Assembly (NCBI GenBank): GCA_963747085.1
Contig: CAVVDX010000001.1
Location: 1,804,272-1,868,271, forward strand
Length of the DNA: 64,000 bases
Reading direction: 5' to 3'
Source: an uncultured Actinomycetota bacterium
GTDB taxonomy: Bacteria > Actinomycetota > Acidimicrobiia > Acidimicrobiales > Bog-793
How positions within the stretch are numbered: position 1 is the first letter of the stretch; every line of letters starts with the position of its first letter. The notes beneath the pieces were generated by a model. It did no database searches. It saw only the letters and a list, made by a program, of their open reading frames with translations, and had not been told where the DNA came from. A program made the position numbers and the translations under genes. Positions 4,178 to 52,118 of the stretch are shown piece after piece.

Positions 4178-4774
4178 TCAAGGAGAGGCCGAGCCAACTG
4201 CAACTGGCCGTCCGAGGTGCCGGTACAGCGTCCTCCGGCTCACCCCGAGCGTCTTGGCGATGCTCTCGACCGACTGCTCCCTAGCGTCGTAGAGCTGCCG
4301 GGCCAGCTTGACCCGCTCGGGGGTCATCACCGCCGGGCGACCACCCTTACGACCGCACGCGCACGTGCCGCCGCCAACCCCGCCATGGTCCGCTCCCGTA
4401 TGAGCTGGCGCTCGAACTCCGCCAGGCTCACGAAGATGTGGAAGACGAGCTTTCCCGCTGGGGTGGTGGTGTCGATGGACTCGGTGAGGCTGCGGAACCC
4501 GACCCCACGAGCCTCCAAGTCGCCGACCAGCTCGATGAGGTTGCGTAGGGACCGTCCCAGCCCGGTCGAGCCGCCAGACAACCACCACGTCTCCCTCGCG
4601 GAGGTGGTCGAGCAACCTGTCGAGCTGAGGCCGACGGTCGAGGGCGCCACTGGCCTTGTCGGTGAAGATGCGGGTGCAGCCGGCAGCCTTGAGGGCGTCG
4701 AGCTGGAGCGCGGGGTCCCGGTAGAGGGTGCTCACTCGGGCGTACCCGATGAGGTCTCCGTTGGGCTTGGTCAT
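4178..4774 (-). pseudogene. Serine recombinase (resolvase/invertase family), two frame breaks
   Basis: The N-terminus [68 protein letters not shown] is in the frame of ORF 4178-4795. The middle, [67 protein letters not shown], is in ORF 4327-4650. The C-terminal HTH, ..[35 protein letters not shown], returns to the first frame. Confidence 0.85.
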
Positions 4775-4977
4775 GTTAAACTCAGTGTAGCACAAACGGT
4801 GAGGCAGCTCGTTATGGCACGGAGATAGCGCTCACGACTGCGGCGCAGCGAAACGGACCCTGTAGCCGCTCCCAGGCGGCATGAAGCAACCGTTCGTTGA
4901 TGACACTCCCTCCTGCGCAGCGTCGACACCGTCCTCGTCCACCCGGACGGACACCACTACTCCGACGATGGTGACTT

Positions 4978-7053
4978 CTACTGCGCAGACTGCTGGGAAG
5001 CTGGACCCTTACTGTCTCCCGAGTCCAAGGCTCCGGCCGGCGCAGCAGCCGCCGGTCGGTCACTGGCCGATGCCTCGAGGCGGTCGATGAGGTCAGCCAG
5101 GCGTGATACCTCCTTGTGCTTCTCGAGGTAGTCCCTGGTAACTGCGCTTTGCGTTGGCGATCAGCGTGTCGTAGGTGACAACGCGAGTGTTGATCCCGGC
5201 GAGCGTCGCAGTCACCTCCTCCGGCTTCAGGTCACTCGGGGGCTTCCCGAGTACGGCGATGCACTCGATCTCGTGTGGTTCGTCTGGGAAACTCTCCGCG
5301 AGACACTTTTGGAGTACCACACGGTACTTCCCGATCTGTCCGCGACCAAATCGGCCGTCGTGACGATAACGCTGTAGCGCTTCAGCTCGATGATGATGTT
5401 CTTGCCCGCAGCGGTCCGGTAGCGAATATCGAGCGCGGCCGGCCTTCTCCTCCGGGCTGAGCCCGGCGTCGATCTCGTCGAACTCCTTGCGCACGGACTC
5501 CTCTATGCGCTCGTTGGTGGAAGCCCGCTCCCACGAAGTGTCAAGTAGCCAGAGGTGGTCGAAGAGGTGCGTCTGGATCACCTTCTCCTTGGCGTCGGCA
5601 TCGACCAGGTCGGCGAAGGAGCTGATGACGCTGACCCGACCTTTGGCGATCTGTCCGTACTCGGCGGCTTCGATGTCGTCGATGGTCGCGAATGCCTTGC
5701 CGATCACGTCGAACTGGAGGGCCGTCTCGTCGAGCTTGTCGACCTCGCTGAGCAGGTCCCGTAACCGAAGCCGCTCGAAGGCGAGGATGCCGTGCTTGTA
5801 CAGCTCGAGCCGATCCGCCTCTCGTTCGAGGGCGATGCTTCCCAGTGTTCCCGAAGAGGCGTTTGGCGTAGGTCTTCTGGTCCGCCCCGAGTGAGGAGTA
5901 CCACTCCTCGACCACGGCATTCTTGCGGGCCTTGTCGAGGGAGTGGTTGCGCGACGCCAGTCCCGCCACTTGTTGCCCACCTCGAGGAGCACGGTCTTGG
6001 CGAGGTACTGGGTCAGTGCCTCGAAGCGAGGATCGTCCTCCTTGAGGCTCTGGCGATCGCTCGTCGCGATGTCCGGATCGTCGTCGGAGTCCACGAAGTC
6101 GGCGTGGATCTCACCCATGAGGTACTTGGCGAACACTCCCGCCTGCTTCACCAGTGCGAGCAGGTCCTCGTGGATGAGCTTTCCCGCGTGCCAGGATGGG
6201 GCACGACGTTCGTCTCGTCGTCGATGTTCCGCTGCTCGTCGACGGTGCCGACCCATCCTGTCACGGCCCATCCTAGTCGCCGAGACCGAGCCGGTGATCG
6301 TCTCCTTCTTCTTGGCATTGACACAACGACCGGCGTAGATGTCTCCGACGTCACCGAGGGACCAGAGGTACTCGATGTTGGAGAAGTAGTCTCGATCGCT
6401 GACGCTGATCTCGGACCCGTCGATTGACACGACGAAGCCGTGTTCGGGACCGATCACGCTGAACCGGCGAGCGAGCCGACGGCGGAGCGCGGACCGCGTT
6501 CCTTCCGTGGGACGCAGCCGGAGGTCGGTGAGAGTGATCCTCGTGCCCCGCTCCAGGTTAACGTATGAAGCATCCATCGGTGTCGGGTGGTAACTCCCCT
6601 CGCCTTCGCCCATCTGAGCGCGGATGTCCGACGTCCGGAGGATCGGAATTCGGCCCGCTGACCCCCCTTGACGCTCTCCACCTGCACCGTGTCAGCGATA
6701 GCGAACAGGGACAGCTTGCCGATCCGCTTTCGACCCATGACGGCCCGGCGCCGTGCGGTGACAGAGGCCCCTGCTTTGCGCCGCTCGAACCCAACGTAGA
6801 GGAAGCGATCGTTGAGATCCTTCGGCGTCATTCCGATGCCGTCGTCGGCCACCGAGATCGTCCTGGAGTCCACGTCGATCACGATCTCGACCTCCTCGGC
6901 GTCGGCATCCCACGCATTGGCGACTACCTCGGACAGGACAGCCGGGATGTTGCTGTAGAGGTTGAGCCCGAGATGGTCGACACGCTTAGGCTGAGCCTCA
7001 TCGTGTACGGGTGCGAGTCCTCGGCGGTCGGCACGTCGTCTGGCATCAGCCAA
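4978..7053 (-). pseudogene. GHKL/MORC-like ATPase (HATPase_c_3-type) with a C-terminal ExK (PD-(D/E)xK-like) motif; about 8 frame breaks
   Basis: The Bergerat-fold N-terminus reads LGLNLYSNIPAVLSEVVANAWDADAEEVEIVIDVDSRTISVADDGIGMTPKDL..GRKRIGKLSLFAIADTVQVES. Later segments recovered from alternate frames are GWAVTGWVGTVDEQRNIDDETNVV, NHSLDKARKNAVVEEWYSSLGADQKTYAKRLFG, HLFDHLWLLDTSWER and LDIRYRTAAGKNIIIELKRYSVIVTTADLVAQIGKYR. The tail ..RSYQDYLEKHKEVSRLADLIDRLEASA.. ends at TAG 4978-4980. The TTG 7053 start is tentative. Confidence 0.7.
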
Positions 7054-7127
7054 GGATGCCTCATCCCCGGTGACCCCGACGCCTCGGATGGGGTCAGGCA
7101 GCCGATTCGTCCGGCGATCCCGAGCGG

Positions 7128-8086
7128 CTATCCTGCTCGGCGGAACTCCTCGTAGCGCTCCTCGAACCGCTCCGGGTCCGGTCGGGCCGTGCGAGGCTCG
7201 GGGCCGGATCAGCTGGACCCCGGCCATCTCCTGCAGTCCGTGGAGCGGCATCGGTCCGTCGATCTGGGCGTGGACGTCGGAGCGCACCTCCACCACCAGG
7301 TCGGCCGCACGCCAAGTGGATTCTCGTCGTAAGCAGCGTGGTGCATCTTGCACAGCGACAGCCCGTTGGGAACGATCGGTGCGCCCCTCGGGTGCCCGTC
7401 GGGGAGGATGTGGGCGGCGTCGAGCAGCGACGAGTACCGCAGTCGGCACATGGCGCACTGGTTCGCGTAGGCGGTCAACACTCCGATACGGAAGACCGGC
7501 TGGTGCAGCCGCTGGCGGGTCAGCCGTTCGATGTAAGGCGCTGCGTCTCGTCACCGACATCGCCGACGGACACCAGGCGCTGCGCCACGTCGAAGGCGAC
7601 CACGAACTGGAGCTGAGCGGGCTCGTCGCCCACGATCCAGATCGGGTAGACGGGCACGTACGGCCCGCCGCGGCGGCCACGAACCACACCAGCGGCAGAC
7701 CGTGGTCGAACGCCTGCCGAGCGACGTTCTCGGGGTGGGAACGATCGATGCCTCGGTACTTGTAGCGGAGCAGCCCGTCCGGTCCCTCGGCATCCTCGTA
7801 GGGTGGGGCCTGGCCCGGGGGGGAAGCGGGTCCGGATGGACAGAGCCACCGTCATGTGGGCCGGCTTGCGGATGCCGCGCTGCGGGTCCATTAGTGGCAT
7901 CCGCCGGCCCTCGAAGCTGAACTCGGCCAGCTCGTCGAAGGATAGGACCTCGCGGCCGGTGGCGACCCGCTCGTCGAGCCATGCCATGGCGGCCACCCGC
8001 AGGCGATCCTCGTAGTCCCTGTCGATGACGGAATCGTACGACGCAGTGGGGCTCCAACCCCGGGAGCTTGGACCCACCAAGGCCAA
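7128..8086 (-). pseudogene. HNH endonuclease (HNH_2-type) with an N-terminal domain of unknown function; about 5 frame breaks
   Basis: HNH core: LTAYANQCAMCRLRYSSLLDAAHILPDGHPRGAPIVPNGLSLCKMHHAAYDEN (ORF 7209-7481). The N-terminal region, reassembled across frames, reads ..LSFDELAEFSFEGRRMPLMDPQRGIRKP..PPGQAPPYEDAEGPDGLLRYKYRGIDRSHPENVARQAFDHGLPLVWF..YVPVYPIWIVGDEPAQLQFVVA. The tail ..RPDLVVEVRSDVHAQIDGPM..LHGLQEMAGVQLIRPEPRTARPDPERFEERYEEFRRAG ends at TAG 7128-7130. The breaks coincide with G/C runs, for example G7 at 7817-7823. Confidence 0.7.
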
Positions 8087-8112
8087 ACTCGCGGAGATGG
8101 GTGCCGGGACAC

Positions 8113-9284
8113 ATGCCGTCCTCGTACGATCGGGTCGTGGAGGGATGCCCGGTCTGTGCTGCGGATGCCGATTTCATCAACATGGCGCGCCGGCCGGATT
8201 ATGAATCCCTCACCCCGAGGTTACGGGCGGCCGACCTCTTGCGGCGGGGGAGGCCTCAGTCTCGGCTTCGCCGAGGCCGCGAGGCGGATCGGTCGCGGGA
8301 TCAAGATCGCGGCCGCCGTGGACAGGTTCGACGCCGCCGACGCCGAACCTAACTTTCCCGGCGCCACGGTGACCCGTCAGGACGTCGCCGCTATCTTCGA
8401 TGGTGCGGCCGGCGGCCGTCCACCGTCAGCGAGACGGAACGGTCGGCCGAGATCGGTAAGGTCGATATCCTGCTCGCGGGTCCACCCTGTCAGGGCCATT
8501 CGGACCTCAACAACCACACCAGCAGAGACGACCACCGTAACGGGCTCTACGTGCGAGTTGCCCGGGCGGCCGAAATCCTCAGCCCTCTGGCTGCCGATCG
8601 AGAACGTCCCCGCTGTGCACCACGATATCGCGGGTCGGTGCCGGCCGCGAGCCCGGCCCTCGAAGGCCGGTTATCGCGTGGCGACGGCGGTCCTCGACCT
8701 CACCGAACTCGGCGTTCCGCAGCGCCGTCGCCGCCACCTGTTGCTCGCCCTCCGCGACCAGCGGATCGACCCGACGCCATACTCGGGACCACCATCGCCT
8801 GTTGCGACCACAAGTCCCGAGGCGTGGCATGGGCGATCCGCGACCTCCTGGGGGCGTTTCGCCGACCGGCCCGAACGCGCCGAGCACTGCAAACGCCGAG
8901 AACAGAAGCGGATGCACTGGCTGTCGCCAACGCAAGTATGACCTGCCGAACAAGCGACGACCGACTGTCCACCACGACGACCACAGCTACGCGTCAATGT
9001 ACGGCCGACTGGATTGGAGGCTTGCACAGACGATCACTACCGGCTACGGTTCCCCGGGCCAGGGCCGTTATGTCCATCCCGCAGAGGCCAGGACGATAAC
9101 TCCCCACGAGGCAGCCCGGCTCCAGACGCTGCCGGACTTCTTCGACCTCGGGCTAAGAAGACACGGGGCACCTGGGCTCACGTCATCGGCAACGCGGTGC
9201 CACCCCTGCTAGGGGTCCACGTCGGCATGCCACCGCCGTCCGCCCTCTTCCCGCCCAAAAAGGACCGCATCCCCCCCCCGATGA
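8113..9284 (+). pseudogene. dcm: DNA (cytosine-5) methyltransferase (candidate DISARM DrmMII equivalent); at least 6 frame breaks
   Basis: Motif I: ..AADL/CGGGGLSLGF. Motif IV: VDILLAGPPCQGHSDLNNH. ENV motif: PIENVPAV. Also GYRVATAVLDLTELGVPQRRRRHLLLA. C-terminal motifs: TITTGYGSPGQGRYVHP..RTITPHEAARLQTLPDFF and IGNAVPPLLG. These are spread over all three forward frames (ORFs 8068, 8156, 8551, 8802, 9014). The proposed stop TGA 9282-9284 follows a C9 run. Confidence 0.8.
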
Positions 9285-9724
9285 CGGACTCCTCCCCCGC
9301 ATTGCCGGGTCCCGCAGGGTCGAGCGAGGTGATTCTGCAACGGATGAGGACGACCAGGCGACGGGACACAAAACCCGAGTTGCTGCTGCGCTCGGAATTG
9401 GACCGCCGAGGCATGCGGTACGCGGTCGATCAGCCCGTGGATGGCACCCGGGGGCGAGCCCACATCGTCTTCAAAGGTGCCCGGGTCGCGGTCTATGTCG
9501 ACGGCTGTTATTGGCATGGCTGCCGTCCACGGCACGATGCCCAAGAGCAACGGCCAGTGGTGGAAGGAAAGCTCGACACCAACCGCTCACGGGACGCCGA
9601 CACCGATGCGAGGCTCACCGAGGCCGGTTGGACCGTGTTGCGGTTCTGGGAACACGATGATCCGGTCGAGTCGGCCGCCAAGGTGGTCGCCGTAGTCCGA
9701 GGGGAGATCGCCGGGCGTCGCTGA
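9281..9724 (+). pseudogene. vsr: Very-short-patch (T:G mismatch) repair endonuclease Vsr; two frame breaks
   Basis: MTDSS..RMRTTRRRDTKPELLLRSELDRRGMRYAVD..RAHIVFKGARVAVYVDGCYWHGC is followed in an alternate frame by ..HGTMPKSNGQWWKE. It then returns to KLDTNRSRDADTDARLTEAGWTVLRFWEH. ATG 9281 overlaps the proposed dcm stop (ATGA), like the dcm-vsr overlap in E. coli. Confidence 0.8.
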
Positions 9725-9766
9725 GGATCGGGGCGCTGTGGCGACCCCCCATTCCATACCGCGCCC

Positions 9767-12164
9767 ATGCCAGCCCAACTCCGTGTGACGGCACAGCCGT
9801 CCGCGAGAATCACCAGCGTGAGCGCAACGACGAGCGAACCGAGGGCAGCCTGGGATGCCGTGCTGCTTGAGCACGAGGGCGGGGCAAGCCTCGTCACCAT
9901 CGCTCGCGACCGCAGGCTCGTGCTGGAGGACGCCCATGGGCCGCACTGGGTGGACCTCTCTTGGGTCGACGAGGCCGCCCTCGCTCTGGTCGATCTGGCT
10001 GTCCGGCGTGGCCAGAGCGTCGACCTGGTGTATCCCGCCCCTGCGGGCACGGTCGCCGTGCTCCTCGCGGCTCAGCTCCTGCTCGGTCGGTTCCTGGCCA
10101 CCCGCGGTGCGAGGGGGCTCCCTCGCCGTCTCTCGGACTGGTCACCGCTGACCCCACCATGGCCGAGCGGGTCTGGAAGCAGCTCCGGATCGCGACGCTG
10201 GGCGACCGTGCCCCGATCGACGAGGTCTTCGCGTGCTTCCGCGCTGGACCTGACGGCGAGAGCCCCGTCGGCGGCCGGCGCTTCACCGGCATCATCATCG
10301 GCCAGGCGTGCGCCGGCTGGCCGGTCGACTGCCTTGTCGTCGACCACCTCGCGGGACTGGTGAGTGTTCCGAGCGGACAGGCGTCGGTCGAGGTCTTCGC
10401 CGACCCTCTCGACCCAGCGCTCCGTCGGGCCGAGCACGATGGCCGACTGCTCTGGGGATGGGCCGACTCCGACCTCGCCCGATGGAACGATGCCCTTGAG
10501 ATCCACCCGACCACACGGTGCCGTTCTCGGTCGCCACCGAGCGCCTGAGCGCCATCGCCCACGGGGTCGATGTCACCATCTCCGTCGCTCACCACGCCGA
10601 CGCCGAGGCTGCATTGGCCCGGGTCCGCGAGGACCTGCGGCTGCTGCGAGTCCTGACCCCCGAGCGCTCCAACCGCCACGTCGAGCGCGGCCTGTCGGCC
10701 GCCTGGCACCATTCTCGACCTTGACCTCGCTCGCCTGTGAACCGGGCCGTTTCGACCGGTTCGCGGGGCTGCCGCCGTGGGCTGCTCGTGCGACCCGCAC
10801 CTTCGAGCCAGAGCTGACCGCCTGGGCACGCACTCTCGACGGCGACCAGGCGGAGATCGCCACCCTCCTGGCCAGCGACATCGGCGACCTCCGCGCTGCC
10901 CTCGACACCGTCAACCCACTGGGATCGGCGGTCGCCGAGCTGGCCGGGGGCGACACCGCGGCGCTCGTCGTGACCAAGACCAAGACCGCCTCTCGGGCGC
11001 TTCTCGATGCCCTCGGAGCTGACCCCGACGCGAGCGCCGTCGGCCCGCTCAGCGTGTGTGCCATCGGCCGTCTGCACCGACACGGGACGTGGCCTCGGGC
11101 GGTCGTCGTCGGAGAACCGGCGCCGTGGGACTGGCATCGGATTTGTCCGGCCTCTCGATCGAGGTGACCGTTCTGGCGCTCGGCGAGGCCTCGGGTCGGA
11201 CCTGCGCCGCCAGCGTCGACAGCGTCCGCGCCGCCCGGGAACGGTGGGGCAGCCCCGAGATCCGAGGCAGGACCTGGCGGACGCTGCTCGGCACCGATCC
11301 ACCGCCAGCCCCGGCGCCCGTCGCCGCCAGGCCGCCGGCGCTCGTCCTCGACGGCGCCGAATTGGTGCCGAACCCGACCCCTTCGAGCCCTTCGACTCCC
11401 TGTTCGACCTCGATCCGCTCGACATCGGCGACGAGGGACCCACGTCCCAGCTCGCCCGCCAGCTCGACGACGGCGACTGGGCGGCCGCCGTCGCCGCCGT
11501 CGTCGTGACCACCGACAGGGGTCGGGTGCTGCTCGAGGAGGCAAGATCGGTCGAGGTGCGAGTCGGTCCCAAGATCGAAGACCGGCGGCCGCTCAAGCTC
11601 CTGCATGGCGATGTCCTCCTCATCGGCCGCCGGCAGGGCCGGGTCGGCCTGCTCGAAGCCCTGGAGGAACGACTGGGAGATCGGCCCGACCTGCTCGCCG
11701 CACGGATGCTCCTCGACCGCTACCACCAGTTGGTCCGCGCCCGATTCGCCCAGTCGGGATTCAGCATCGCCGATCTCCACCGCAAGCTGGAGGCGCTCGG
11801 GTGCGACAAGACGGCGTTCGCCGTCCGCAGCTGGGTGACCGAGGGCGGGATCATGGCGCCTCGTGATCTCAGCGACCTGCGGCTGCTGTGCGTGGCGCTC
11901 GACCTCGGTATGTCCGACGTCCAGATCGGTGAACTGTTCGCCTGCGTCCAGCGCCGTCGGGTGTTCCGCCGGGCCGCCGGCCGGGCGCTCGCCGAGGCTG
12001 CTCGAAGCTCGACCCTCGTCGGGGACCAGCGTCGCGTCGATCCCGACACCGGCCTATCCATCGCCGACCTCCGCGACGCTGTCATCGAGGCAGTTGTCCT
12101 CGAAGTCCGGCCTTGCGAGGAACGGGTGCCGCTGACCCTGCTGGGACGACTGGAGAGCACGTGA
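9767..12164 (+). pseudogene. drmE: DrmE-like protein of about 800 aa (assigned by size and position only); five frame breaks
   Basis: Protein-like text can be followed through ORFs 9767, 9961, 10518, 10364, 11056 and 11007, with switches near 10112-10125, 10505-10515, 10700-10712, 11138-11142 and 11365-11375. It ends ..VPLTLLGRLEST at TGA 12162-12164, overlapping the drmA GTG (GTGA). I could read no catalytic motif. Confidence 0.45.
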
Positions 12165-15100
12165 CCGATCAGCTCAGTTCTGCCCACTGCACCACCTTCG
12201 TCTCGTGGATGCTCGACGGTGTCGTCGCCGAGGCGCGGGGTGACCGCATGCAGTTCCTGCCCGTCGCCCCCAAGGGTCGCTTCTGGCTGGGCCGGCTCGC
12301 CCCGGAGATCGTGGTCCAGAACAGCCGACTGGGGGAGCGAAGCGAACGGTTGGAGCCGTGCGAGGTCGGTATACGGGTTCGCCCCTCGGCCATCGATGGC
12401 CGCTCGGTCTCGTGCTCGGCTCAGTTCGTCGTCTGGAGCGAGTTCGACGGCGGCGATCAGCCGGACGCCGACAAGTGGCGCAAGAGCGAGCCCATCGAGG
12501 TGACCGCGACATTGCCGATCCCGAACGCCATCGCCCAGGTAACGTCCGCCGGCCGCGATGCCTTCGAGCGGGCGCTCGCCGGCAACGGGGCTGTTGGCAT
12601 GAGCTGTGAGTTCCACGCCGAACTTGAGTTCGGCAAGGACGGCCCCGAACTCGTCGTCACGCTGGTCAACATCTCGCCCGAGGAACTCGACGGCTGGGAC
12701 ACCAACCTCTACGAGGCGTCGATGACCGCCGATGTCGGCGCGACCGAGCCCTTCACCCTGGACAACCTCCCCGATTCGTTCCGGTACGAGCGGACGGTCC
12801 CGGCCTACGGCGTCAACGGCGGCGTCGAGCTGGTCTCGTCCACCGTCTTCCAGACCACCGACGTCGCCGTCCGCGATCAACCGCGGCCGGACTATTGGGA
12901 CCACGAGGCCGGCACGGCGCCGGACATCACCTTCGCGGCCCTGGCAGACGACCCGATGCCGAGCCTGCGGAACCTCGTCACCCTGGCAGCGCAGTGGGGT
13001 GACCACCACTGGTCCGATCAGGTGCTCGCCGGCCGGGCCGACCACGAGCACTGGGACGAGGGCATGCGCCAGCTTGCCGCAGAGGAGGCAGCCGCCTTCT
13101 TCGACGAGCTGGCCCGGCTCCAGCAGGGGGTCACGCTGCTCGACGGCGACGAGGGGCTGCGACGCGCCTTCCGGTTCGCCAACCGGGCCTTCGCAACGTC
13201 ACCCGCCGTGCCCCATGGGGGCTGGCGAGCGTTCCAACTCGGCTTCGTGCTCGCCAATGTCGCCTCCATCGCCGACGATTCGCCGCACGGCCCCCGCGAG
13301 GTCGTCGACACGCTCTGGTTCGCCACGGGCGGCGGCAAGACCGAGACCTACCTCCTCTACGTGGTGACGGCTGCGTTCTTCGACCGTCTCCGTGGCAAGC
13401 GCGAGGGGATCACGTCCTGGGGCCGCTTCCCGCTGCGGATGCTGTCGCTTCAGCAGACGCAACGCTTCGCCGACGTGCTCGCTGCCGCCGAACTCGTGCG
13501 CCGCGACGAACAGATCGACGGCCAGCCCTTCTCGCTCGGCTTCTTCGTGGGCAACAACGGGACTCCCAACAAGATCCCCACTGCCCGCGATCACCGGCCG
13601 GGTCAGCCCGACCCCAACGACGCCGAGATGCCTGGCCGCTACCAGGTCCTGCTCCGCTGCCCCTTCTGTACCTCTTCGTCGCTCGAGATGCGCTTCGATC
13701 AGCAGCGCTGGGCCCTCGACCACGTCTGCACCGCCGCAGACTGCCCGTGGGGAGGCCGGCCGTTGCTCATCCGCGTCGTCGACGAGGAGATCTACCGCTC
13801 GCTGCCGACGGTCGTCCTCGGCACGCTCGACAAGGCGGCGAGCATCTCGATGCAGGCGGCGATGCGCGGCTTCTATGGGCCACCGGCCGGACGCTGCCCC
13901 CAGCAGGGGCACGGCTACACCTACGCGCCGAGGAGCAAGTCCCCGTCCGGATGCCTCTTCCCGGGCTGCTCGGCGCAACCCGGCCCGCTTCGTCAGGACG
14001 CCGCGATGTTCGCCCCCACCATCCGGATGCAGGACGAGCTGCACCTCCTCCGCGACAGCCTGGGGGCGGTCGATGCCCACTACGAGGCCCTGCTCGACGC
14101 GCTCCAGACCCATTACGGCTCGACCCCGAAGATCATCGCCTCTTCGGCCACCCTCGCCGGTCACGACGAGCAGGTGGCTGCGCTCTACCGCCGCGAGGGA
14201 CGAACCTTTCCCCGTCCTGGCCCGCGGGTCGGTCACTCGTTCTGGTCCCGCGACACGGAGAAGCTCGCCCGGCGGTTCGCGGGCGTCGCACCGCGTGGCG
14301 TGACGCTGGAGTACGCCACCGACCAGCTCACCGAGGCGCTCCAACGCGTGACGCGGCGAGCGATCGACGAGCCTGCTGCCGTCGCCGCCGAGACCGGCCT
14401 GGCGACCGACCTCTTCCCCGCTCTCGTGTCGATCTACGGCGTCGATGTGGTCTACGGCTCGACGCTCAAGGACGTCGAGGCGGTGGCACGTTCCTTCGAC
14501 ACCCAGATCCAGCTCTCCCGCCCGGTCAACGCCGCGACGCTCACCGGCCGGACGCCGCTCGACGAGGTCCGCGCCACGCTGGCCCGTCTCACGCACCCCG
14601 AGGCCGACTTCTACGACCGGATCCATCTCGTGGCGGCGTCGTCGATGCTCTCCCACGGCGTCGACATCAATCGGCTCAACGTCATGGTCATGCTCGGGCT
14701 GCCGCTCGCCACCGCCGAGTTCATCCAGACGACCTCACGAGTCGGACGCACCCACCCCGGTCTCGTTATCGTCCTCCACAAGATCGGCCGCGAGCGCGAC
14801 GCCGCCGTCTACCGCACCTTCCCGTCATTCGTTGCCCATGCAGATCGCCTGATCGATCCCGTGCCGGTGACGGCCAAGAGCCGTCGGGTGCTGGAGCTGA
14901 CCTTCGCTGGACTCGTCCAGGCCCGCCTCTTCGGGATCCATGAACCTGCGGCGATCGCCGCCAACCTCAGACAGCTCACTCTCCCGGCCGCGGTGCGACG
15001 GGCCTTCGCCCGCCTCCCCGTGCTGGAGCCGGCGGAACTGGCGGCACTGGTCGCGATGCTCGCCTTCACGGGGCCACTCGACGAGAACCTGAGACAGGAT

Positions 15101-15256
15101 CTCCAGACCTACCTGCGCGAGTTTTTCCGTGCCCTCAACGACCCGGCCAGCAGCGCCCATTGGGTCGACGATCTCTTCCCTACGGGCAAGCCGATGCTGT
15201 CCCTGCGGGACGTCGAGGAACAGGCTCCGGTCTACTCAAGGGGCGGTCGGTCGTGA
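12161..15256 (+). CDS. drmA: DrmA-like SF2 helicase (DISARM core), intact
   Basis: Uninterrupted ORF (12113-15256; likely GTG start at 12161). Walker A: LWFATGGGKTETY (13322-13345). Motif II: IRMQDELHLL (DELH at 14033-14044). Also IIASSATLAGH, and motifs V-VI VAASSMLSHGVDINRLNVMVMLGLP..AEFIQTTSRVGR. A CPFC...C..DCPWG zinc-knuckle insert is present. Confidence 0.8.
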   Translation: MTDQLSSAHCTTFVSWMLDGVVAEARGDRMQFLPVAPKGRFWLGRLAPEIVVQNSRLGERSERLEPCEVGIRVRPSAIDGRSVSCSAQFVVWSEFDGGDQPDADKWRKSEPIEVTATLPIPNAIAQVTSAGRDAFERALAGNGAVGMSCEFHAELEFGKDGPELVVTLVNISPEELDGWDTNLYEASMTADVGATEPFTLDNLPDSFRYERTVPAYGVNGGVELVSSTVFQTTDVAVRDQPRPDYWDHEAGTAPDITFAALADDPMPSLRNLVTLAAQWGDHHWSDQVLAGRADHEHWDEGMRQLAAEEAAAFFDELARLQQGVTLLDGDEGLRRAFRFANRAFATSPAVPHGGWRAFQLGFVLANVASIADDSPHGPREVVDTLWFATGGGKTETYLLYVVTAAFFDRLRGKREGITSWGRFPLRMLSLQQTQRFADVLAAAELVRRDEQIDGQPFSLGFFVGNNGTPNKIPTARDHRPGQPDPNDAEMPGRYQVLLRCPFCTSSSLEMRFDQQRWALDHVCTAADCPWGGRPLLIRVVDEEIYRSLPTVVLGTLDKAASISMQAAMRGFYGPPAGRCPQQGHGYTYAPRSKSPSGCLFPGCSAQPGPLRQDAAMFAPTIRMQDELHLLRDSLGAVDAHYEALLDALQTHYGSTPKIIASSATLAGHDEQVAALYRREGRTFPRPGPRVGHSFWSRDTEKLARRFAGVAPRGVTLEYATDQLTEALQRVTRRAIDEPAAVAAETGLATDLFPALVSIYGVDVVYGSTLKDVEAVARSFDTQIQLSRPVNAATLTGRTPLDEVRATLARLTHPEADFYDRIHLVAASSMLSHGVDINRLNVMVMLGLPLATAEFIQTTSRVGRTHPGLVIVLHKIGRERDAAVYRTFPSFVAHADRLIDPVPVTAKSRRVLELTFAGLVQARLFGIHEPAAIAANLRQLTLPAAVRRAFARLPVLEPAELAALVAMLAFTGPLDENLRQDLQTYLREFFRALNDPASSAHWVDDLFPTGKPMLSLRDVEEQAPVYSRGGRS

Positions 15257-16947
15257 GGGTCGAGCGGGGAGCGTCGCAGATCCTCTTCGGGCTCCTCCCT
15301 GGCCAAACTGCGGATCTCGAGGGCCGCATCTGGCGCGTCACCAACTGGGTCGACCCGGTCCAGACTGCACTCGACCAGGACACGGTTCGGTCGGCCCTCA
15401 TCGCCGCCATCGCCCCGTGGGCCGCCACTGGCAACGACGACGGTCTGACCGCCGAGCTGCGGGCCAGAGCCGCGGTCGACATCGTGAGACTCAACATGGA
15501 TCGCGGCGTGCTCGTCGAGCCTTTCCCGCAGCAGTGGCGCTGCAAGACCTGCGGCACGATCACTGCGTTCGCGTGACGACCGCTGTCCCTGCGGTGGACG
15601 AACTCGGGCGCAGATGCAGTTCGTCTCTTACCACACGTGCGGGGCGGCACGAGAGCCGATCCTCCAACCCTGCCGGACCCACAACGCCGTCGCTGTGCAC
15701 CTGCCCGGCACGTCCACCGCCCGCGAACTCCGCTTTTTCTGTCCTCAGTGTCGAGCAACGATCTCCCAGGGCTTCCCGTACCAGGTGTGCAACTGCGGCG
15801 GCGGGATGAGCGTCACCGTCCACCGTGCCGCCGTCGTCTTTTCGCCCCGGTTCGCAGTCCTCGTCAACCCGCCCGACCCGGCCACCGCCGCCCGGCTCAG
15901 AGCCGGCGGTGGTGGCGCTCGCGCGCTGGAGTGGGTGGTCGACGGCATGACCACCGACGACCCCACCGCCGGCCGACAGACCCTGGCCGGCCTCGTGGAG
16001 GGCTTTCGCCAGATGGGGTTGTCGGAGGCGACCGCGCACGATCTCGCCCGCCAGGCGGCGGCGCAGGGCGAGGTCGATGCCGGAGCTGCCAATCCGATCG
16101 CGCTCCAGGACCCTGTTCGGGAGAAGGCGCAGGAGGAGGCACTGAGCCTCGCCTCCGCTGTCTCGGGCGGCCGAACCCGGGTGGCCGACATGGTGGCCGG
16201 CACGACGCCGCCGCTGCGCACCCTCTACGAGGGCGCGTATCACGACGCCACGCGCGCCGCCCATCTCGAGGGCGTCGATCTGCTGGCCAACTTCCCCGTC
16301 GCAACCCTCGGCTTCGGCTACACCCGCGGCGACATGAACCCCGGCGTCGCCCGTCTGGTGCCGTTTCGCGATCGGGGTCACATCCGAGCCTATGCATCCC
16401 TCAGTCGGACGGAGGCGCTGCTGTTCCGGCTCGATCCCCTCGCGGTCCTCCATCACCTGACGGTGACCGGACACCCGCTGCCGCCGGCTGTGGATGCACG
16501 AGCGGCACGGCTCGCGATCCTCGAGAATCTCGACATCCCCTGGCCGACCCAGGAGCAGTACCAGCCGCTCGGCGGGAGCGTGCTGTTGCTGCTCCACTCC
16601 TATGCGCACCGAACCATCCGCCGGCTCGCGGCCTTCGCCGGCATCGACGCGACGGGTTGGCCGAATACCTGCTGCCCCACCATCTCGGATTCGTGGTGTA
16701 CGCCGCCTCGCGCGGTGACTTCGTCCTCGGCGGGCTACAGGCGGTCTTCGAGACCTCGCTGCATCGCTTCCTCGAGGACTTCGTCGCGGGCGAGTCACGC
16801 TGTGCCCTCGATCCCGGCTGTCGCAGCGGCGGCGGTGCATGCATGGCCTGCCTGCACCTGGGCGAACCCTCCTGTCGCTGGTTCAATCGCTTCCTCGACC
16901 GTTCCCAGCTCTTCGGTGAGCACGGCTTCGTGCTGGACGCTCGCTGA
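15253..16947 (+). pseudogene. drmB: DrmB-like DUF1998 protein (DISARM core); two frame breaks
   Basis: GTG 15253 overlaps the drmA stop (GTGA). Reads ..FPQQWRCKTCGTITAF, then after a break at ~15570 RDDRCPCGG..FVSYHTCG..FFCPQCRA..CNCGG. After a break at ~16648 it reads GLAEYLLPHHLGFVVYAASRGDFVLGGL..SRCALDPGCRSGGGACMACLHLGEPSCRWFNRFLDR, the DUF1998-type Cys cluster. Confidence 0.75.
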
Positions 16948-16949
16948 CG

Positions 16950-17688
16950 GTGCACGACGCCGAACTGGTCGGCGGCGTCCTTTACGCCGCCCCCGATCCG
17001 TGGAGCACTGCACACGATCTCGCGGGGCTCCTCGCCGCGCCTCGGACCGATCGCCGGCAGGCGTCCGGCCTCGGTCTCGATCCCGACCTCGTCGACGTGC
17101 TGCGTGCTCACTTCGGCGGTGATCGCCCGCGGATCGACACTGCCTGCGACCTCGGGGCGGCGTGGGTCCTCGGGCGCCGTTCGGTCGTGAGCGCTGAGCC
17201 GTGGGACCTCGTCGCCTCGCTGCCGGCGAATACGCCGCTGCCGACGCGGCCTGACCCGCACGACCGCCGAGACCCTGGTGCAGCTCGTGACCCAGTCGAC
17301 GACGTCACTTCGGTTGGCGGCACCGTTCATCGACCTGCCGGGCATCTCGCACCTGGCCGACGGCCTCGCGGCGGCGACGGCCCGAGGCGTCCACCTCGAG
17401 ATCCTGCTGCCCACCCGCTCGACCCATGCTGGGGGAGCGCTCCACGAACTGCGCGCCACGATCGCCAGGGACGGCAACAGCGCCAACCTGTCGGTCGCGG
17501 CAATCCGCGAGGACGCTCCGTGGGCGCACTTGAAAGCGCTCACGTCGGACTCGCGGGCCGCCTACATCGGCAGCGCCAACGTCACCGGCGCCGGTCTGGC
17601 AGGCCTGAACCTTGAGCTGGGCATCCTCGTCCGTGGGCCGGCGGTTGCCGTCGTCGAGCGGGTGCTGGACCTGTTCCGCGAACGCTGA
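16950..17688 (+). pseudogene. drmC: DrmC-like PLD-family nuclease (DISARM); one frame break
   Basis: GTG 16950 lies 2 nt after the drmB stop. The break is at ~17247. The downstream frame (ORF 17278-17688) holds a single HKD motif, HLKALTSDSRAAYIGSAN (17527-17580). Confidence 0.75.
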
Positions 17689-21928: not shown

Positions 21929-22138
21929 CCTCCGTCTCGCCTTGACGGGACACGGCCACCGGAAGCCGTCATCCTCCCATGTTTCGCTGAGTCGTGGCCA
22001 GCGGGTCCCGCCTCGGTGCGCCGCTGTGCTATGGGCTCTGGTCCTGTTTACCGTAACAAGCTACGGTATTCGAAACAGACCTCAGGGTGGTGGATACCAG
22101 GTCCCCGTCCTCGTACTCCCGATCCCCGCATCCACCAG

Positions 22139-22637: not shown

Positions 22638-23797
22638 CTAATCCGCCGAGCGAGACAGCGTCAACGTGCGGCCGAGGCTCGCGGCCAACTCCCAGTCGCG
22701 CTGCTCGACGGCGTGGGAGTACACACGGAGCGTGACGGAAGGGTCGGCGTGGCCGAGCCGAGCGCCCACGGTCACGGCATCGAAGCCGGCGGCGATTGCC
22801 TGGGTCGCGGAGAAGTGCCGGAGCGCGTGGAGGTGGGTGTCCACGCCGGCCCGCTTGGCGACCCTGATCGTGAACTTCGTGAGGACGTCGAGCCGCATCG
22901 GTTCGAGCCCGGCTGGCGAGCGCTAGAACATGAAGGCATGCGGCGCCACGGCCACCCCGAGGTCGCGGGCCAGGGTGTCGATCTGTCGCGGTGGCGTCGG
23001 AGAATCTCAACGCCAAGGTCGTCCAGGCCCACCTTGCGCGCTGCGTGGGTTTTTGTCGCCTTCTCGCCCCACCCACCACCGGGCGTCTCGTAGATCGAGC
23101 GGGCGACGCGGAGCGTGCGAGCCTCGGCGTCGAAGTCTGACCATCGCAGCGCACACAGCTCGCCCCGCCGGGCTCCTGTGAGGGCGGCCAGCGAGAGCAG
23201 CGCTGCGAAGGCCGGCTCGATCGCCTCGGCGACTTCGATGATGGCGCGCACCTGCTCGGGGTCAGGAGCCTCGACCTGCGAGGCGTGCACAGGTGGCGGC
23301 GTGGCCCGCTTGCTGACGTTGCGGTCGATCAGGCCCCACTTCTCGGCCTGGTGGAGCGCGACGCCGATCAGGGCGTGGACGTGGCGGACGGTCATCGGCT
23401 TCAGGCCGCGGGCGACGAGCCGGGCGTACAGGCGGTCGAGGTCGACAGCAGTCAACCGGGCGAGCCGGACGCCGCCGAGTTCCGGGCGAAGGATGGTGTC
23501 AGCGATGCGGCGGTACTCCCGGAGCGTCGTCGGCGAGCGGCCGATCGACTCGGCGTGCTCCAGGAAGCGGTCGAGCAGATGGCCGACTGTCTCGGTACCG
23601 GTCGCCGTGTTGCCCTTAGCGACCTCGGCGACCATCCGGGCCAGCTGCCGGTCGGCCTCCCGTACGCCCGAGCCCGGCCGGCCATCGCCCGTGCGCACGG
23701 TCTCGCTGCGCTGGATGGGCTGGCCCTTGGCGTTGCGGCCCAGGTAGACCCGCAGGCGCCACACACCCGCGCTGACTTCGTCCTTCGTTCCCTGCAT
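22638..23797 (-). pseudogene. int: Tyrosine-type site-specific integrase; one frame break plus an in-frame TAG
   Basis: MQGTKDEVSAGVWRLRVYLG..TLREYRRIADTILRPELGGVRLARLTAVDLDRLYARL..ALLSLAALTGARRGELCALRWSDFD.. reads to a break at ~22985. It continues ..QIDTLARDLGVAVAPHAFMF, hits TAG at 22923-22925, and then reads RSPAGLEPMRLDVLTKFTIRVAKRAGVDTHLHALRHFSATQAIAAGFDAVTVGARLGHADPSVTLRVYSH (R..HxxR..Y catalytic residues). Confidence 0.85.
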
Positions 23798-23874
23798 GCC
23801 GCCATTGTAGTCCGGAAGTAGTCCGACAACTGAGGCGACGTGCGAGCAGCGAGACGAAGCAGCGCTCACACCTG

Positions 23875-23959
23875 CGGAGGGAGGGGGATTCGAACCCCCG
23901 GTCCCTCGCGGGACAACGGTTTTCAAGACCGTCGCAATCGTCCGCTCTGCCATCCCTCC
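23875..23959 (-). tRNA. tRNA-Ser (anticodon UGA)
   Basis: The minus strand reads GGAGGGATGGCAGAGCGGACGATTGCGACGGTCTTGAAAACCGTTGTCCCGCGAGGGACCGGGGGTTCGAATCCCCCTCCCTCCG. It has a 7-bp acceptor stem, the anticodon loop CTTGAAA, a long variable arm and a GGGGG/TTCGAAT/CCCCC T-arm. Confidence 0.9.
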
Positions 23960-24446: not shown

Positions 24447-25432
24447 CTACGACCCGGCGCCCGGCAGCTTGGCGCGAAGCCCGGCGATCCAGTCCCGCGC
24501 GGCGAGACGGCGCACGGCGATCTGCTCGCGCACCTCCGACGAGCCGGCTCCGACCGCAGGGTAGGAGCCGAGGAACTTCACGTCCTCGAGCTCGACGCGC
24601 AGCTCTTCGAGGCAGTCGGCGAGCAGCTCGTCGGCGAGGTGCCCCTCCACGTCGATGACGAAGCAGTAGTCGCCGAGGGCCTGCTTGGTCGGCCTGGACT
24701 CGATGCGGGTCAGGTTGAGGCTGCGCGCGGCGAACTGGCCGAGGATCTGGTGCAGGTTGCCGGGCCGGTCGGCATGCTGGAAGCAGACGATGGACGTCTT
24801 GTCGTGCCCCGTCGGGCGGGGTCACGCGGTCCGGCCCGACGAGGACGAAACGGGTCTGGTTGCCCTCGTGGTCCTCGATCGCGTGCGCCAGCACCTCGAG
24901 CCCGTACAGCTTGGCGGTGAGCCCCGGTGCGATGGCGGCCTCGCCGGCTGCACCGGACTCGGCCACGGTGCGCGCCGCCTCGGCGGTCGAGCTCGCCGCC
25001 ACGACCGCGGCCCCCGGAAGGTGGGCGCCGAGGAAATTCGCGGCATTGCGCGCTGGCGACGGGAAAGGACAGGACGCGCCCGACCGCCGAGGCGGTGGTG
25101 CCCGGGCGGGCAAGGAGGTCGAGGTGCACGTCGAGCACGACCTCGCGCTGGATGAGCAGCTCGGCGTCGAAGACGAGGCGGTCCAGGGTGACATTGACCG
25201 AGCCCTCGATCGAGTTCTCGATCGGGACGAAGGCGGCGTCGACCTCGCCACGCTCGGCGGCGTCGATCGCCTCCTCGATGGTCGGCATCGGCACGAGCTC
25301 TCGCGCGGCGAGGTCGGCCTCGCCGAGCAGGGCTTCCTCGCTGAACGTGCCGGGCGGGCCGAGGTAGGCGATGCGCGCCGGCGCCGGCAGCGGCGCGCGC
25401 CCGACAGGCGGGCTGTCCGGTCGGGGGGGCAC
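24447..25432 (-). CDS. pheA: Prephenate dehydratase; two frame breaks (possible sequencing indels)
   Basis: RIAYLGPPGTFSEEAL..VPIENSIEGSVNVTLDRL.. (ORF 24710-25432) continues as ..NFLGAHLPGAAVVAASSTAEAARTVAE..AAIAPGLTAKLYGLEVLAHAIEDHEGNQTRFVLVG. The ACT domain follows: GHDKTSIVCFQHADRPGNLHQILGQFAARSLNLTRIESRPTKQALGDYCFVIDVEGHLADE.. (frame of ORF 24447-24650). Confidence 0.85.
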
Positions 25433-35998: not shown

Positions 35999-36597
35999 TC
36001 AAGAGAGCAAGAATAGGCAGCTGAACAGTCCGATCCAGACGATGTCGACGAAGTGCCAGTAGTAGCTGACCGCCTGGAACACGGCGGTCTCGCCCGGGTC
36101 ACCCTTCGGGCCGTACAGCCGGCCGAGCAGGGCGATCATCGCAACCAGGCCGAGGATGACGTGCAGGCCGTGCAGCCCGCTCATGATGTAGAAGAGCGAG
36201 CCGTAGACGTTGGTGTGCGGGCGGAACGGAAGGGTCTTCCACTCGTAGGCCTGGTTGGCGACGAACGCCGCGCCGAGCAGGAAGCTGGCGACGATCCACG
36301 CCTTGGCCTTGCCGCGCTCGCCGCGCTCCTGCGCCCAGACCCCCATCTGCATCGTCGGGCTCGAGGCGAGCAGCACGAAGGTGAAGGCGAGCGCCTGGTA
36401 GGTGTCGAGCTTGGTGCCCGGCGGCGGCCAGACCGGGCGTGGGCACGGATCGTGAAGAAGGCGGCGAACAGCCCGGAGAAGAACATGAACTCCGAGCCGA
36501 GCCAGATCATCACCCCGACGGCGAGCAGCTGCGGCCGCTTGGGGTGGGCGGGCCCACCGGCGGCAACCGGCACCGCTGCGGCAGTCAGCTCGCTCAC
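35999..36597 (-). CDS. ctaE: Cytochrome c oxidase subunit III; one frame break near ~36430
   Basis: [43 protein letters not shown] (ORF 36181-36597) continues as ..[58 protein letters not shown] (ORF 35999-36808). Confidence 0.85.
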
Positions 36598-44017: not shown

Positions 44018-44357
44018 TCACCAGGCTGAAGCCGAACAGCGCCGTCCACAGGCCGAAGACGAAGGCGAGGCCGATCATCGCCACGCCGAGCCCGAGCACG
44101 AACGGCCACACGCTCGAGCTGGGGAAGGCGCCGACCACCCCGGCACCCTGCTCGAGGGTGCCGCCGGGGTCGTCCTCGGCGCGTGGGGTCATCCGCCGCG
44201 ACCACCAGAGGTAGTAGCCGCCGGGCAGCAGGCCGAGCAGGCACGCCCCGATGAGCATCACCGTGCCGGACTGCTCGTAGCTGAAGCCCCAGTAGATCGC
44301 TGCGACGACCCCGCAGAACACGGCGATGAACAGCAGGAACAGCGCCTCGACCCTCAT
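43965..44357 (-). CDS. ctaF: Cytochrome c oxidase subunit IV (actinobacterial CtaF)
   Basis: A 130-aa, four-TM protein, [61 protein letters not shown]. Its start overlaps the ctaD stop. Confidence 0.75.
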
Positions 44358-51955: not shown

Positions 51956-52118
51956 CGAAGCTGGTGCTCCTTTCGGATCCGGTCCGCTTTCTGCGGACGG
52001 TGTGGTGGGGCGGTGGTCAGGGACGCAGCCTCGCCGTCGCGCCGCGTGGTGAGAGACGTCCGAGTTGCTCCACCCGGACGACGGCCGCACCCGAACAGGT
52101 CGGTGGCTCCGGTCGGGC

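What the first reader, a model, noticed from the sequence alone, without database searches (positions are those of the whole stretch)
12161..15256. drmA is the only long intact gene in an otherwise shattered island
By my reconstruction the neighbouring island genes carry a frame break roughly every 250-500 bp:
- GHKL ATPase, about 8;
- HNH, about 5;
- methylase, at least 6;
- vsr, 2;
- drmE-like, 5;
- drmB, 2;
- drmC, 1.

The 3.1-kb drmA ORF has none, and it reads as sensible protein throughout. The possible explanations are local sequence quality, selection retaining a lone helicase, or chance.
Basis: seen in the sequence. Interest (0 to 1): 0.55.

Follow-up and report, generated by a model that had tools for sequence, protein, structure and literature searches.

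The report
Intact drmA beside assembly-error-riddled neighbours
The drmA helicase gene really is unbroken while every other gene of its anti-phage island has frame breaks, but the breaks look like insertion/deletion errors of a long-read assembly rather than gene decay, so drmA's survival needs no biological explanation.

Summary
drmA (12161-15256, 1031 codons) is one clean reading frame. GHKL, HNH, methylase-Vsr, drmE, drmB and drmC carry about 42 frame-breaking 1-2 bp indels that intact relatives lack.

drmA is not the unit that was spared. The indel-free tract runs 11370-15564 and begins 792 bp inside drmE. Breaks are dense only in about 4.3-11.4 kb (6 per kb). Elsewhere they occur about once per 5 kb, including in housekeeping genes (pheA twice, ctaD, ctaE, hemH, pstS). 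At that rate a 3.1-kb gene escapes about half the time.

The broken genes show no decay once the frame is corrected:
- dN/dS matches intact orthologues (0.12-0.18).
- No nonsense substitutions arose within the conserved coding regions.
- DrmE has 0 of 124 and DrmB 0 of 85 invariant residues changed.
- The window's lineage carries no excess substitutions (177 against 171 and 181).

The indels ignore homopolymers. The source appears to be a 2.77-Mb single-contig Acidimicrobiales-like MAG. Other long-read MAG copies of this island are shattered too, drmA included, while short-read and isolate copies are intact.

Best explanation: consensus indel errors, locally dense, in an ordinary class 2 DISARM plus restriction-modification island. 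Selection for a lone helicase is not supported. Reads are needed for proof.

The parts
12161..15256 (+). drmA: DISARM helicase, 1031 codons, intact
   Evidence: The PADLOC DrmA model matches at E=3.6e-102 and Pfam Helicase_C also matches. It aligns in a single frame at 88-90% to intact relatives. It has 0 private changes at 371 columns invariant in 60 homologues. The motifs GGGKTE (aa 390), QDELH (aa 624) and QTTSRVGR (aa 856) are present.
11370..15564 (.). Indel-free tract of 4195 bp: the last 264 codons of drmE, all of drmA and the start of drmB
   Evidence: The window has no lineage-specific indel here in the 3-way or 5-way alignments. The last dense-tract deletion is at 11369 and the next event is an insertion at 15565.
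4340..11369 (.). Indel-dense tract: about 39 frame-breaking 1-2 bp indels in 5100-11369, plus 2 in the resolvase. The left edge lies somewhere between 3151 and about 4560.
   Evidence: The rate is 6.2 per kb, against about 0.2 per kb elsewhere. It splits into an insertion-rich block at 5.1-6.9 kb and a deletion-rich block at 6.9-11.4 kb (Fisher p=2e-5).
4178..4795 (-). Serine recombinase (resolvase) with two frame shifts in its middle
   Evidence: Pfam Resolvase matches only profile positions 2-76 of 145. HTH_7 then matches again in the same ORF at residues 152-193, with out-of-frame sequence between them.
5068..7064 (-). GHKL-ATPase restriction-enzyme-like gene, with 10 frame-breaking indels
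   Evidence: Pfam HATPase_c_3 matches. The intact L001 orthologue hits PADLOC REase_II at E=5.8e-95. Indel positions are. dN/dS against L001 is 0.150, the same as between the two intact relatives L001 and L002.
7131..8101 (-). HNH endonuclease gene, with 6 frame-breaking indels
   Evidence: tblastn with the L001 and L002 HNH proteins. The orthologue matches Pfam HNH_2 and PADLOC HNH.
8104..9724 (+). C5 cytosine methylase fused to Vsr (DrmMII-like), with about 17 frame-breaking indels
   Evidence: Fragments match Pfam DNA_methylase and Vsr. The intact L001 ORF carries both domains and hits the DruM, DrmMII and MTase_II models. Only 3 of 142 invariant residues are changed after frame correction.
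9791..12164 (+). drmE, with six single-base deletions (9791, 10108, 10504, 10714, 11142, 11369). The last 264 codons are clean.
   Evidence: Pfam DrmE_C matches and PADLOC DrmE matches the orthologue. tblastn shows the frame changes. After frame correction, 0 of 124 invariant residues are changed and dN/dS is 0.14.
15160..16947 (+). drmB, with two frame breaks (+1 at 15565, -1 at 16646)
   Evidence: tblastn frames run 1, 2, 1 at 88-96% identity. PADLOC DrmB matches the orthologue. After correction, 0 of 85 invariant residues are changed.
16809..17688 (+). drmC (PLD nuclease), with one frame break (+1 at 17243)
   Evidence: tblastn shows two frames. PLDc_2 and PADLOC DrmC match the orthologue.
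22772..23959 (-). Frame-broken tyrosine integrase next to tRNA-Ser (23874-23959): the likely edge of the genomic island
   Evidence: ARAGORN finds the tRNA. Pfam Phage_integrase matches only positions 5-81 of 172. A frame switch lies near 22985.
24450..25432 (-). pheA (prephenate dehydratase), a housekeeping gene split over three frames
   Evidence: The PDT domain (positions 1-104 of 181) and the ACT domain lie in different frames. The three-frame translation shows the joins.
36002..36597 (-). ctaE (COX3) with one frame break near 36435
   Evidence: tblastn with the L026 COX3 protein gives residues 1-53 in frame -2 and 55-198 in frame -1.
37887..38809 (+). hemH (ferrochelatase) with one frame break near 38400-38513
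   Evidence: tblastn with the L026 HemH protein gives two overlapping HSPs in frames 3 and 2.
44357..46088 (-). ctaD (COX1) with one frame break near 45890
   Evidence: The two-frame translation matches the full-length relative P0241. tblastn shows frame -3 then -1. A truncated 502-aa product that is 100% identical is on record on a 2.77-Mb contig.
50702..52016 (-). pstS-like phosphate-binding protein with a probable frame break near 51314
   Evidence: PBP_like_2 matches only positions 8-126 of 267 in the upstream ORF. A frame switch occurs without a stop codon.

Best explanation
The locus is an ordinary class 2 DISARM anti-phage cassette (drmE-drmA-drmB-drmC with a C5 methylase-Vsr fusion) joined to a GHKL/HNH restriction module. 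It lies in a tRNA-Ser genomic island of an Acidimicrobiales-like genome.

The frame breaks are best explained as insertion/deletion errors in the consensus of a long-read metagenome assembly. That the assembly used long reads is inferred. Such errors occur about once per 5 kb throughout the window. They are about 26 times denser in one stretch (about 4.3-11.4 kb), most likely because the consensus there rests on very few reads. That cause is also inferred and could not be tested without reads.

drmA lies outside the dense stretch, so its intactness is what the background error rate predicts about half the time. In the real organism the whole cassette is probably intact. It would then work as class 2 DISARM does. 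The methylase marks self DNA. The DrmA-DrmB helicase complex, with DrmE, attacks unmethylated invading DNA. This mechanism is taken from the literature, not shown here.
For: 1. **The breaks are specific to the window's lineage.** The window has 30 frame-breaking indels in 7130-17690. L001, L050 and L028 have none, and L002 has one inside a gene.
2. **Substitutions show no decay.**
   - dN/dS of the frame-corrected broken genes is 0.12-0.18, the same as between intact orthologues.
   - The window's own substitutions stay biased to third codon positions. Its only two in-frame stops in the reference frame lie at uncertain gene starts.
   - Changes at otherwise invariant residues: DrmE 0 of 124, DrmB 0 of 85, methylase 3 of 142.
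   - In the part of the dense tract covered by the five-way alignment (7130-11369), the window has 177 private substitutions, against 171 (L001) and 181 (L050). About 27 extra indels there are accompanied by roughly no extra substitutions.
3. **The indels are random with respect to context.** They show no homopolymer or k-mer enrichment, unlike natural slippage mutations.
4. **Housekeeping genes in the same window carry isolated frame breaks.** These are pheA (twice), ctaD, ctaE, hemH and pstS.
5. **The source looks like a long-read MAG.** A truncated 502-aa ctaD product 100% identical to the window's is on record on a single 2.77-Mb contig.
6. **The pattern follows sequencing technology.** Copies of this island in MFD-series MAGs have drmE, drmA and drmB split over several frames (L023, L025) or one break in drmB (L002, L013). 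That these are long-read assemblies is my reading of their names and contig sizes. Every locus with short-read-assembler or isolate contig names is single-frame.
7. **drmA's escape is expected.** The probability of no break at the background rate is 0.52, and the clean tract starts inside drmE.
8. **Literature.** Nanopore MAGs carry indel-driven false pseudogenes, and the problem is worse at low coverage (PMC8103633).
Against: - No reads are available, so coverage and per-site indel support are unknown.
- A 26-fold local rise in error density with sharp edges is unusual and remains unexplained.
- The tract also splits into an insertion-rich block and a deletion-rich block (Fisher p=2e-5).
- The indels are not concentrated in homopolymers, which is where older nanopore and 454 consensus errors concentrate.
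- A mobile defence island next to a broken integrase, resolvase and ligase is also a plausible place for real decay.
Confidence: 0.72

Rival explanations
1. The decay is real and recent. The island, especially its restriction-modification half, has truly been inactivated by frameshift mutations. drmA is simply not yet hit. The scattered breaks in core genes would then be either assembly errors or also real.
For: The island sits beside a frame-broken integrase, resolvase and ligase fragment. Defence islands turn over quickly. The indels are not the homopolymer type typical of some sequencing platforms.
Against: - About 27 extra indels come with no excess substitutions on the window's branch.
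- dN/dS is unchanged.
- There are no nonsense substitutions within the conserved coding regions.
- Invariant residues are untouched.
- At the indel-to-substitution ratios usual in bacteria (general knowledge, roughly 1:4 to 1:20), 100 or more neutral substitutions would be expected.
- Natural 1-bp indels favour homopolymer runs, and these do not.
- There are no large deletions. The cassette is 12.6 kb, as in intact relatives.
Confidence: 0.17
2. Recombination patch. The island decayed, and a homologous exchange with an intact DISARM cassette then replaced about 11.4-15.5 kb, restoring drmA.
For: Similarity along the cassette is mosaic. The left part is closest to L001. The 14.6-15.8 kb stretch is 93-95% identical to L050 and L002, against 80-88% elsewhere.
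Against: - There is no step in similarity at 11.37 kb.
- The clean tract is still 5-20% divergent from every relative found.
- The relatives are mosaic among themselves in the same way.
- It does not explain why the broken parts lack substitutional decay.
Confidence: 0.04
3. Selection retains drmA alone as an orphan helicase with a new role, while the rest of the island decays.
For: drmA is full length, all helicase motifs are present, and no invariant residue is changed.
Against: - The clean tract begins 792 bp upstream, inside drmE (P=0.007 at the dense rate).
- The broken genes show the same constraint as drmA.
- Within the lightly hit right half, the probability that drmA has 0 of 3 breaks is 0.13.
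- DrmA acts as an obligate DrmA-DrmB complex, and drmA, drmB and drmE are each required in class 2 DISARM (PMC9142583; 10.1101/2021.12.28.474362).
- In other long-read MAG copies drmA itself is shattered.
Confidence: 0.03

Closest known systems
Class 2 DISARM (drmE, drmA, drmB, drmC, drmMII; first described in Bacillus, Ofir et al. 2018, as summarised in bioRxiv 10.1101/2021.12.28.474362 and PMC9142583)
   Same: It has the same gene set and order: drmE-drmA-drmB-drmC plus a C5 cytosine methylase. The PADLOC DrmA, DrmB, DrmC and DrmE models and the Pfam Helicase_C, PLDc_2, DrmE_C and DNA_methylase models all match.
   Different: The methylase is fused to a Vsr mismatch endonuclease and lies upstream. 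A divergently oriented GHKL-ATPase restriction-like gene and an HNH gene travel with the cassette. In this window every gene except drmA is frame-broken.
False pseudogenes from indel errors in long-read (nanopore) metagenome-assembled genomes (e.g. PMC8103633; Watson and Warr 2019, from memory)
   Same: The breaks are 1-2 bp indels that fragment otherwise well-conserved genes, housekeeping genes included. The pattern follows sequencing technology across copies of the same island. No substitutional decay accompanies them.
   Different: The errors here are highly clustered, 6 per kb over about 7 kb against 0.2 per kb elsewhere. They are not homopolymer-associated. The cause of the clustering is not established.
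Genuinely decaying defence islands and pseudogenised restriction-modification systems
   Same: The setting is similar: a mobile island at a tRNA gene with a broken integrase and resolvase, and multiple frame breaks per gene.
   Different: Real decay brings nonsense substitutions, raised dN/dS, a longer branch, larger deletions and homopolymer-biased indels. None of these is seen.

Membership tests
DrmA (DISARM helicase) | Superfamily 2 helicase core with a C-terminal helicase domain (PF00271) and ATP-binding motifs | tested here: met
   Pfam Helicase_C scores 29.1 bits, above its 23.5 cut-off. DEAD is below its cut-off. The motifs GGGKTE, QDELH and QTTSRVGR are present.
DrmA (DISARM helicase) | Match to curated DrmA profiles and full-length homology to annotated DrmA-type proteins | tested here: met
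   PADLOC DrmA models match at E=3.6e-102 and 1.1e-97. Homologues of 1027-1031 aa cover 100% of the query at up to 90% identity.
DrmA (DISARM helicase) | Encoded next to a DUF1998-type DrmB partner with which it forms the core complex | tested here: met
   drmB lies immediately downstream. Its intact orthologue hits PADLOC DrmB at E=1.9e-25. Complex formation itself is not testable here (PMC9142583).
Class 2 DISARM system | Core triplet drmA-drmB-drmC in one operon | tested here: met
   The gene order is colinear with intact relatives. In this window drmB has 2 frame breaks and drmC has 1.
Class 2 DISARM system | C5 cytosine methylase drmMII (PF00145), optionally with drmE | tested here: met
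   DNA_methylase matches at E=5.6e-49 and the DrmMII and DruM models match the intact orthologue. DrmE_C and PADLOC DrmE also match. The copies in the window are frame-broken.
Class 2 DISARM system | All components encoded as intact ORFs, so that the system can function | tested here: inconclusive
   As deposited, only drmA is intact. The evidence indicates that the breaks are assembly errors, but reads are needed.
Class 2 DISARM system | Anti-phage activity dependent on methylation of self DNA | not testable with these tools
   This needs experiments. It is known for the Bacillus system only from the literature (10.1101/2021.12.28.474362).
Genuine pseudogene or decaying island | Relaxed constraint: raised dN/dS, nonsense substitutions, loss of invariant residues, longer branch | tested here: not met
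   dN/dS is 0.12-0.18, equal to intact orthologues. No nonsense substitutions arose within the conserved coding regions. Invariant residues are kept. Private substitutions number 177, against 171 and 181.
Long-read assembly indel artefact | Frame breaks also occur in essential single-copy genes, and the pattern follows sequencing technology across homologous loci | tested here: met
   pheA, ctaD, ctaE, hemH and pstS are broken. MFD MAG loci are broken and short-read or isolate loci are intact.
Long-read assembly indel artefact | Indels lack read support, or coverage is thin at the affected sites | not testable with these tools
   No reads are available.

The most novel reading that the evidence does not exclude
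The frame breaks are real and very recent. An indel-only, context-independent mutational process has riddled the restriction-modification half of the island without adding substitutions. One candidate is repeated double-strand breaks repaired by end joining; a LigD-like ligase fragment lies nearby. Under this reading the drmA region is spared or maintained.
Probability: 0.04. Interest if true: 0.6.

Novelty: not a real feature. Interest (0 to 1): 0.1.

Why it matters
Mostly as a caution. Taken at face value, the pattern suggests a defence island decaying around a selectively kept helicase. The substitution record says the genes were under normal constraint, and the breaks behave like consensus errors.

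The tests used here need no reads and can be reused to separate false from true pseudogenes in long-read MAGs:
- dN/dS after frame correction.
- Invariant-residue counts.
- Lineage-specific substitution against indel counts.
- Comparison with housekeeping genes in the same contig.
- Comparison of the same locus across sequencing technologies.

The island itself is a routine class 2 DISARM plus restriction-modification cassette that has moved between phyla.

Tried and rejected
- **Methylation-motif errors.** GATC looked enriched near the indels by eye. GATC occurs about every 90-130 bp here, and the formal test shows no enrichment. No 4-mer is significantly enriched after multiple testing.
- **Homopolymer slippage or platform bias.** Run lengths at the indels match those at random positions.
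- **Invertible or excisable segment bounded by repeats near the resolvase.** No convincing direct or inverted repeats bracket 4.3-11.4 kb, and no att repeat was found.
- **Recombination patch restoring drmA.** Similarity is mosaic but shows no step at 11.37 kb.
- **Finding the source record or an identical copy.** Exact look-ups of DrmA and of the truncated CtaD found nothing on record. The closest DrmA anywhere is 90% identical, so no near-identical intact allele was available for comparison.
- **tblastx of the island flanks against related loci.** It gave only high-GC noise.
- **My codon-usage HMM for frame switches.** It is rough. It works on the window but is unreliable on loci with other codon usage. 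Core-gene breaks were therefore confirmed by Pfam, tblastn or translation, not by the HMM alone.
Full report
**The sequence as it stands**

The window is about 70% G+C. The ORF at 12113-15256 is the longest in the region. Its likely start is the GTG at 12161, which overlaps the stop of the upstream gene as GTGA. That gives 1031 codons, the length shared by its homologues. GC3 stays high in one phase across the whole gene, whereas the phase jumps repeatedly in the flanks.

**What the genes are**

- Window positions 5068-17690 are colinear with a 12.6-kb cassette in two MAGs. One is an Acidimicrobiales MAG (L001, 82.6% nucleotide identity). The other is a Dormibacteraeota MAG (L002, 80.3%).
- The cassette is also colinear with metagenome contigs L050 and L028 (83-84%).
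- On the intact relatives, profile searches name the genes:
  - a GHKL-ATPase restriction-enzyme-like protein;
  - an HNH endonuclease;
  - a C5 cytosine methylase fused to Vsr, matching the DrmMII and DruM models;
  - DrmE, DrmA, DrmB and DrmC (a PLD nuclease).
- The window's drmA hits the PADLOC DrmA model at E=3.6e-102 and Pfam Helicase_C.
- This is a class 2 DISARM cassette with an attached restriction module.
- It lies in an island that ends at tRNA-Ser (23874-23959), next to a tyrosine integrase.
- The host is Acidimicrobiales-like, judged from the named CtaD relatives.

**Checking the observation**

- tblastn with intact orthologues shows these frame changes:
  - DrmA: none;
  - DrmE: five (10108, 10504, 10714, 11142, 11369);
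  - DrmB: two (15565, 16646);
  - DrmC: one (17243).
- Alignment to L001 gives 10 frame-breaking indel events in GHKL, 6 in HNH, 17 in methylase-Vsr and 6 in drmE.
- In a five-way alignment the window has 30 lineage-specific frame-breaking indels in 7130-17690. L001, L050 and L028 have none, and L002 has one inside a gene.
- drmA has no compensating indels. The only length difference is an in-frame +3 at 12170 against L001.
- The protein has all helicase motifs. It has no private change at 371 columns invariant in 60 homologues.

**drmA is not the spared unit**

- The events are far from evenly spread.
  - About 39 lie in 5100-11369.
  - None lies in 11370-15564.
  - Three lie in 15565-17690.
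- If breaks were spread evenly, drmA would be expected to carry 10.3, and the probability of none is 7e-6. So the unevenness is real.
- However, the clean tract starts 792 bp upstream of drmA, inside drmE. The probability of no break in those 792 bp at the dense rate is 0.007.
- The resolvase at 4178-4795 also has two shifts, so the dense tract runs from about 4.3 kb.
- Within the lightly hit right half, the probability that drmA escapes all three breaks is 0.13.

**Frame breaks occur elsewhere in the window**

- Housekeeping genes are broken too:
  - pheA is split over three frames;
  - ctaD has a shift near 45890, shown against a full-length relative;
  - ctaE and hemH each have one;
  - pstS probably has one.
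- The integrase and a ligase fragment are also broken.
- That makes about 11 breaks in 52.6 kb outside the dense tract. A 3.1-kb gene then escapes with probability 0.52.
- A truncated 502-aa ctaD product 100% identical to the window's is on record on a single 2.77-Mb contig held by NCBI and ENA. I take that contig to be the window's source and to come from a long-read MAG assembly. Both points are inferences.

**Are the breaks biological?**

Several read-free tests give the same answer.

1. After frame correction, dN/dS between the window and intact relatives is 0.12-0.18 for the broken genes. That equals the values between the intact relatives themselves. For GHKL it is 0.150 in both comparisons.
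2. The window's own substitutions remain biased to third codon positions. The only two in-frame stops in the reference frame lie at uncertain gene starts.
3. The corrected proteins keep the residues that are invariant in relatives: DrmE 0 of 124 changed, DrmB 0 of 85, DrmA 0 of 204, methylase-Vsr 3 of 142.
4. In 7130-11369, the part of the dense tract covered by the five-way alignment, the window has 177 private substitutions at sites where the others agree. L001 has 171 and L050 has 181. About 27 extra indels there are accompanied by roughly no extra substitutions.
5. The indels are not enriched in homopolymers or in any short motif. Natural 1-bp indels are enriched in homopolymers (general knowledge).
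6. There are no large deletions. The cassette keeps its full 12.6-kb length.

Natural decay at the usual indel-to-substitution ratios (general knowledge, roughly 1:4 to 1:20) would have added a hundred or more evenly spread substitutions. It would also have hit invariant residues and created stop codons.

**The pattern follows sequencing technology**

- Among related loci, contigs whose names point to short-read assemblers or to isolates all carry drmE, drmA and drmB in single frames.
- The MFD-series MAG loci differ. I take these to be long-read assemblies, judging from record names and contig sizes.
  - L023 and L025 have all three genes, drmA included, spread over several frames.
  - L002 and L013 each have one break in drmB.
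- Nanopore MAGs are known to carry indel-driven false pseudogenes, more so at low coverage (PMC8103633).

**Best explanation and what stays open**

The frame breaks are consensus indel errors. drmA is intact because it lies outside a locally error-dense stretch.

Why that stretch exists is not settled. Its edges are sharp. It splits into an insertion-rich block (5.1-6.9 kb; 8 insertions, 1 deletion) and a deletion-rich block (6.9-11.4 kb; 3 insertions, 27 deletions; Fisher p=2e-5). That would fit a consensus resting on one or very few reads, for example a strain-variable segment or a bridging read. Only the reads can show this. No repeats bracket the tract.

**Rivals**

- **Real recent decay.** It is not excluded but conflicts with the substitution evidence.
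- **A recombination patch.** The mosaic similarity hints at it. There is no step at 11.37 kb, however, and the relatives are equally mosaic among themselves.
- **Selection for a lone helicase.**
  - The position of the clean tract argues against it.
  - The neighbours show the same constraint as drmA.
  - Known biology argues against it: DrmA works as a DrmA-DrmB complex, and drmA, drmB and drmE are each required in class 2 DISARM (PMC9142583; 10.1101/2021.12.28.474362).

**Verdict**

The contrast it highlights is most likely an assembly artefact, and drmA's escape is consistent with chance. The underlying locus is a known kind of system. Interest is low.

Noticed in passing
window 24450-25432, 36002-36597, 37887-38809, 44357-46088, 50702-52016: The housekeeping genes pheA (two breaks), ctaE, hemH, ctaD and probably pstS each carry frame breaks. 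Their sequence is otherwise well conserved.
   Followed up: yes
window 5100-6900 versus 6900-11400: The dense tract has two blocks of opposite sign. The first has 8 insertions and 1 deletion. The second has 3 insertions and 27 deletions (Fisher p=2e-5). This is unexplained.
   Followed up: partly
window 5068-17690; L001 2827-15517; L002 2907-15521; L050 4918-15577: The 12.6-kb cassette GHKL-HNH-methylase/Vsr-DrmE-A-B-C is colinear at 80-84% nucleotide identity between Acidimicrobiales and Dormibacteraeota MAGs. L050 and L028 share it from the HNH gene rightwards. Which relative is closest changes along its length. This indicates transfer between phyla and recombination among cassettes.
   Followed up: partly
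L001 5990-7555; L002 5918-7567; window 8104-9724: In intact relatives the C5 cytosine methylase and the Vsr mismatch endonuclease are one fused ORF of 521-549 aa.
   Followed up: partly
L023 and L025 (MFD MAG loci), drmE-drmA-drmB region: In these other MAG copies drmA itself is spread over four or more frames. L002 and L013 each have a single break in drmB. Short-read and isolate loci are all single-frame.
   Followed up: yes
window 22772-23959: tRNA-Ser (tga) abuts a frame-broken tyrosine integrase, probably marking the right edge of the genomic island. No matching att repeat was found in 1-24500.
   Followed up: partly
window 4178-4795: A serine recombinase (resolvase) lies next to the cassette. 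Two frame shifts put its middle out of frame, and they mark the left part of the dense tract.
   Followed up: partly
window 19956-20721: A fragment of an ATP-dependent DNA ligase (DNA_ligase_A_M domain) has a frame switch near 20250.
   Followed up: no
window 21000-22000: A low-GC patch (0.56, against about 0.70 around it) contains ORF 21350-21928 on the minus strand, which looks like a phosphoribosyltransferase by eye.
   Followed up: no
protein P0198 (same 2.77-Mb contig as the window's ctaD): A second, full-length ctaD paralogue (587 aa, 77% identical) is recorded on a contig of the same length, presumably the same genome.
   Followed up: no
window 104-688: An ORF carries three DUF4379 treble-clef zinc-finger repeats at the left end of the window.
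   Followed up: no
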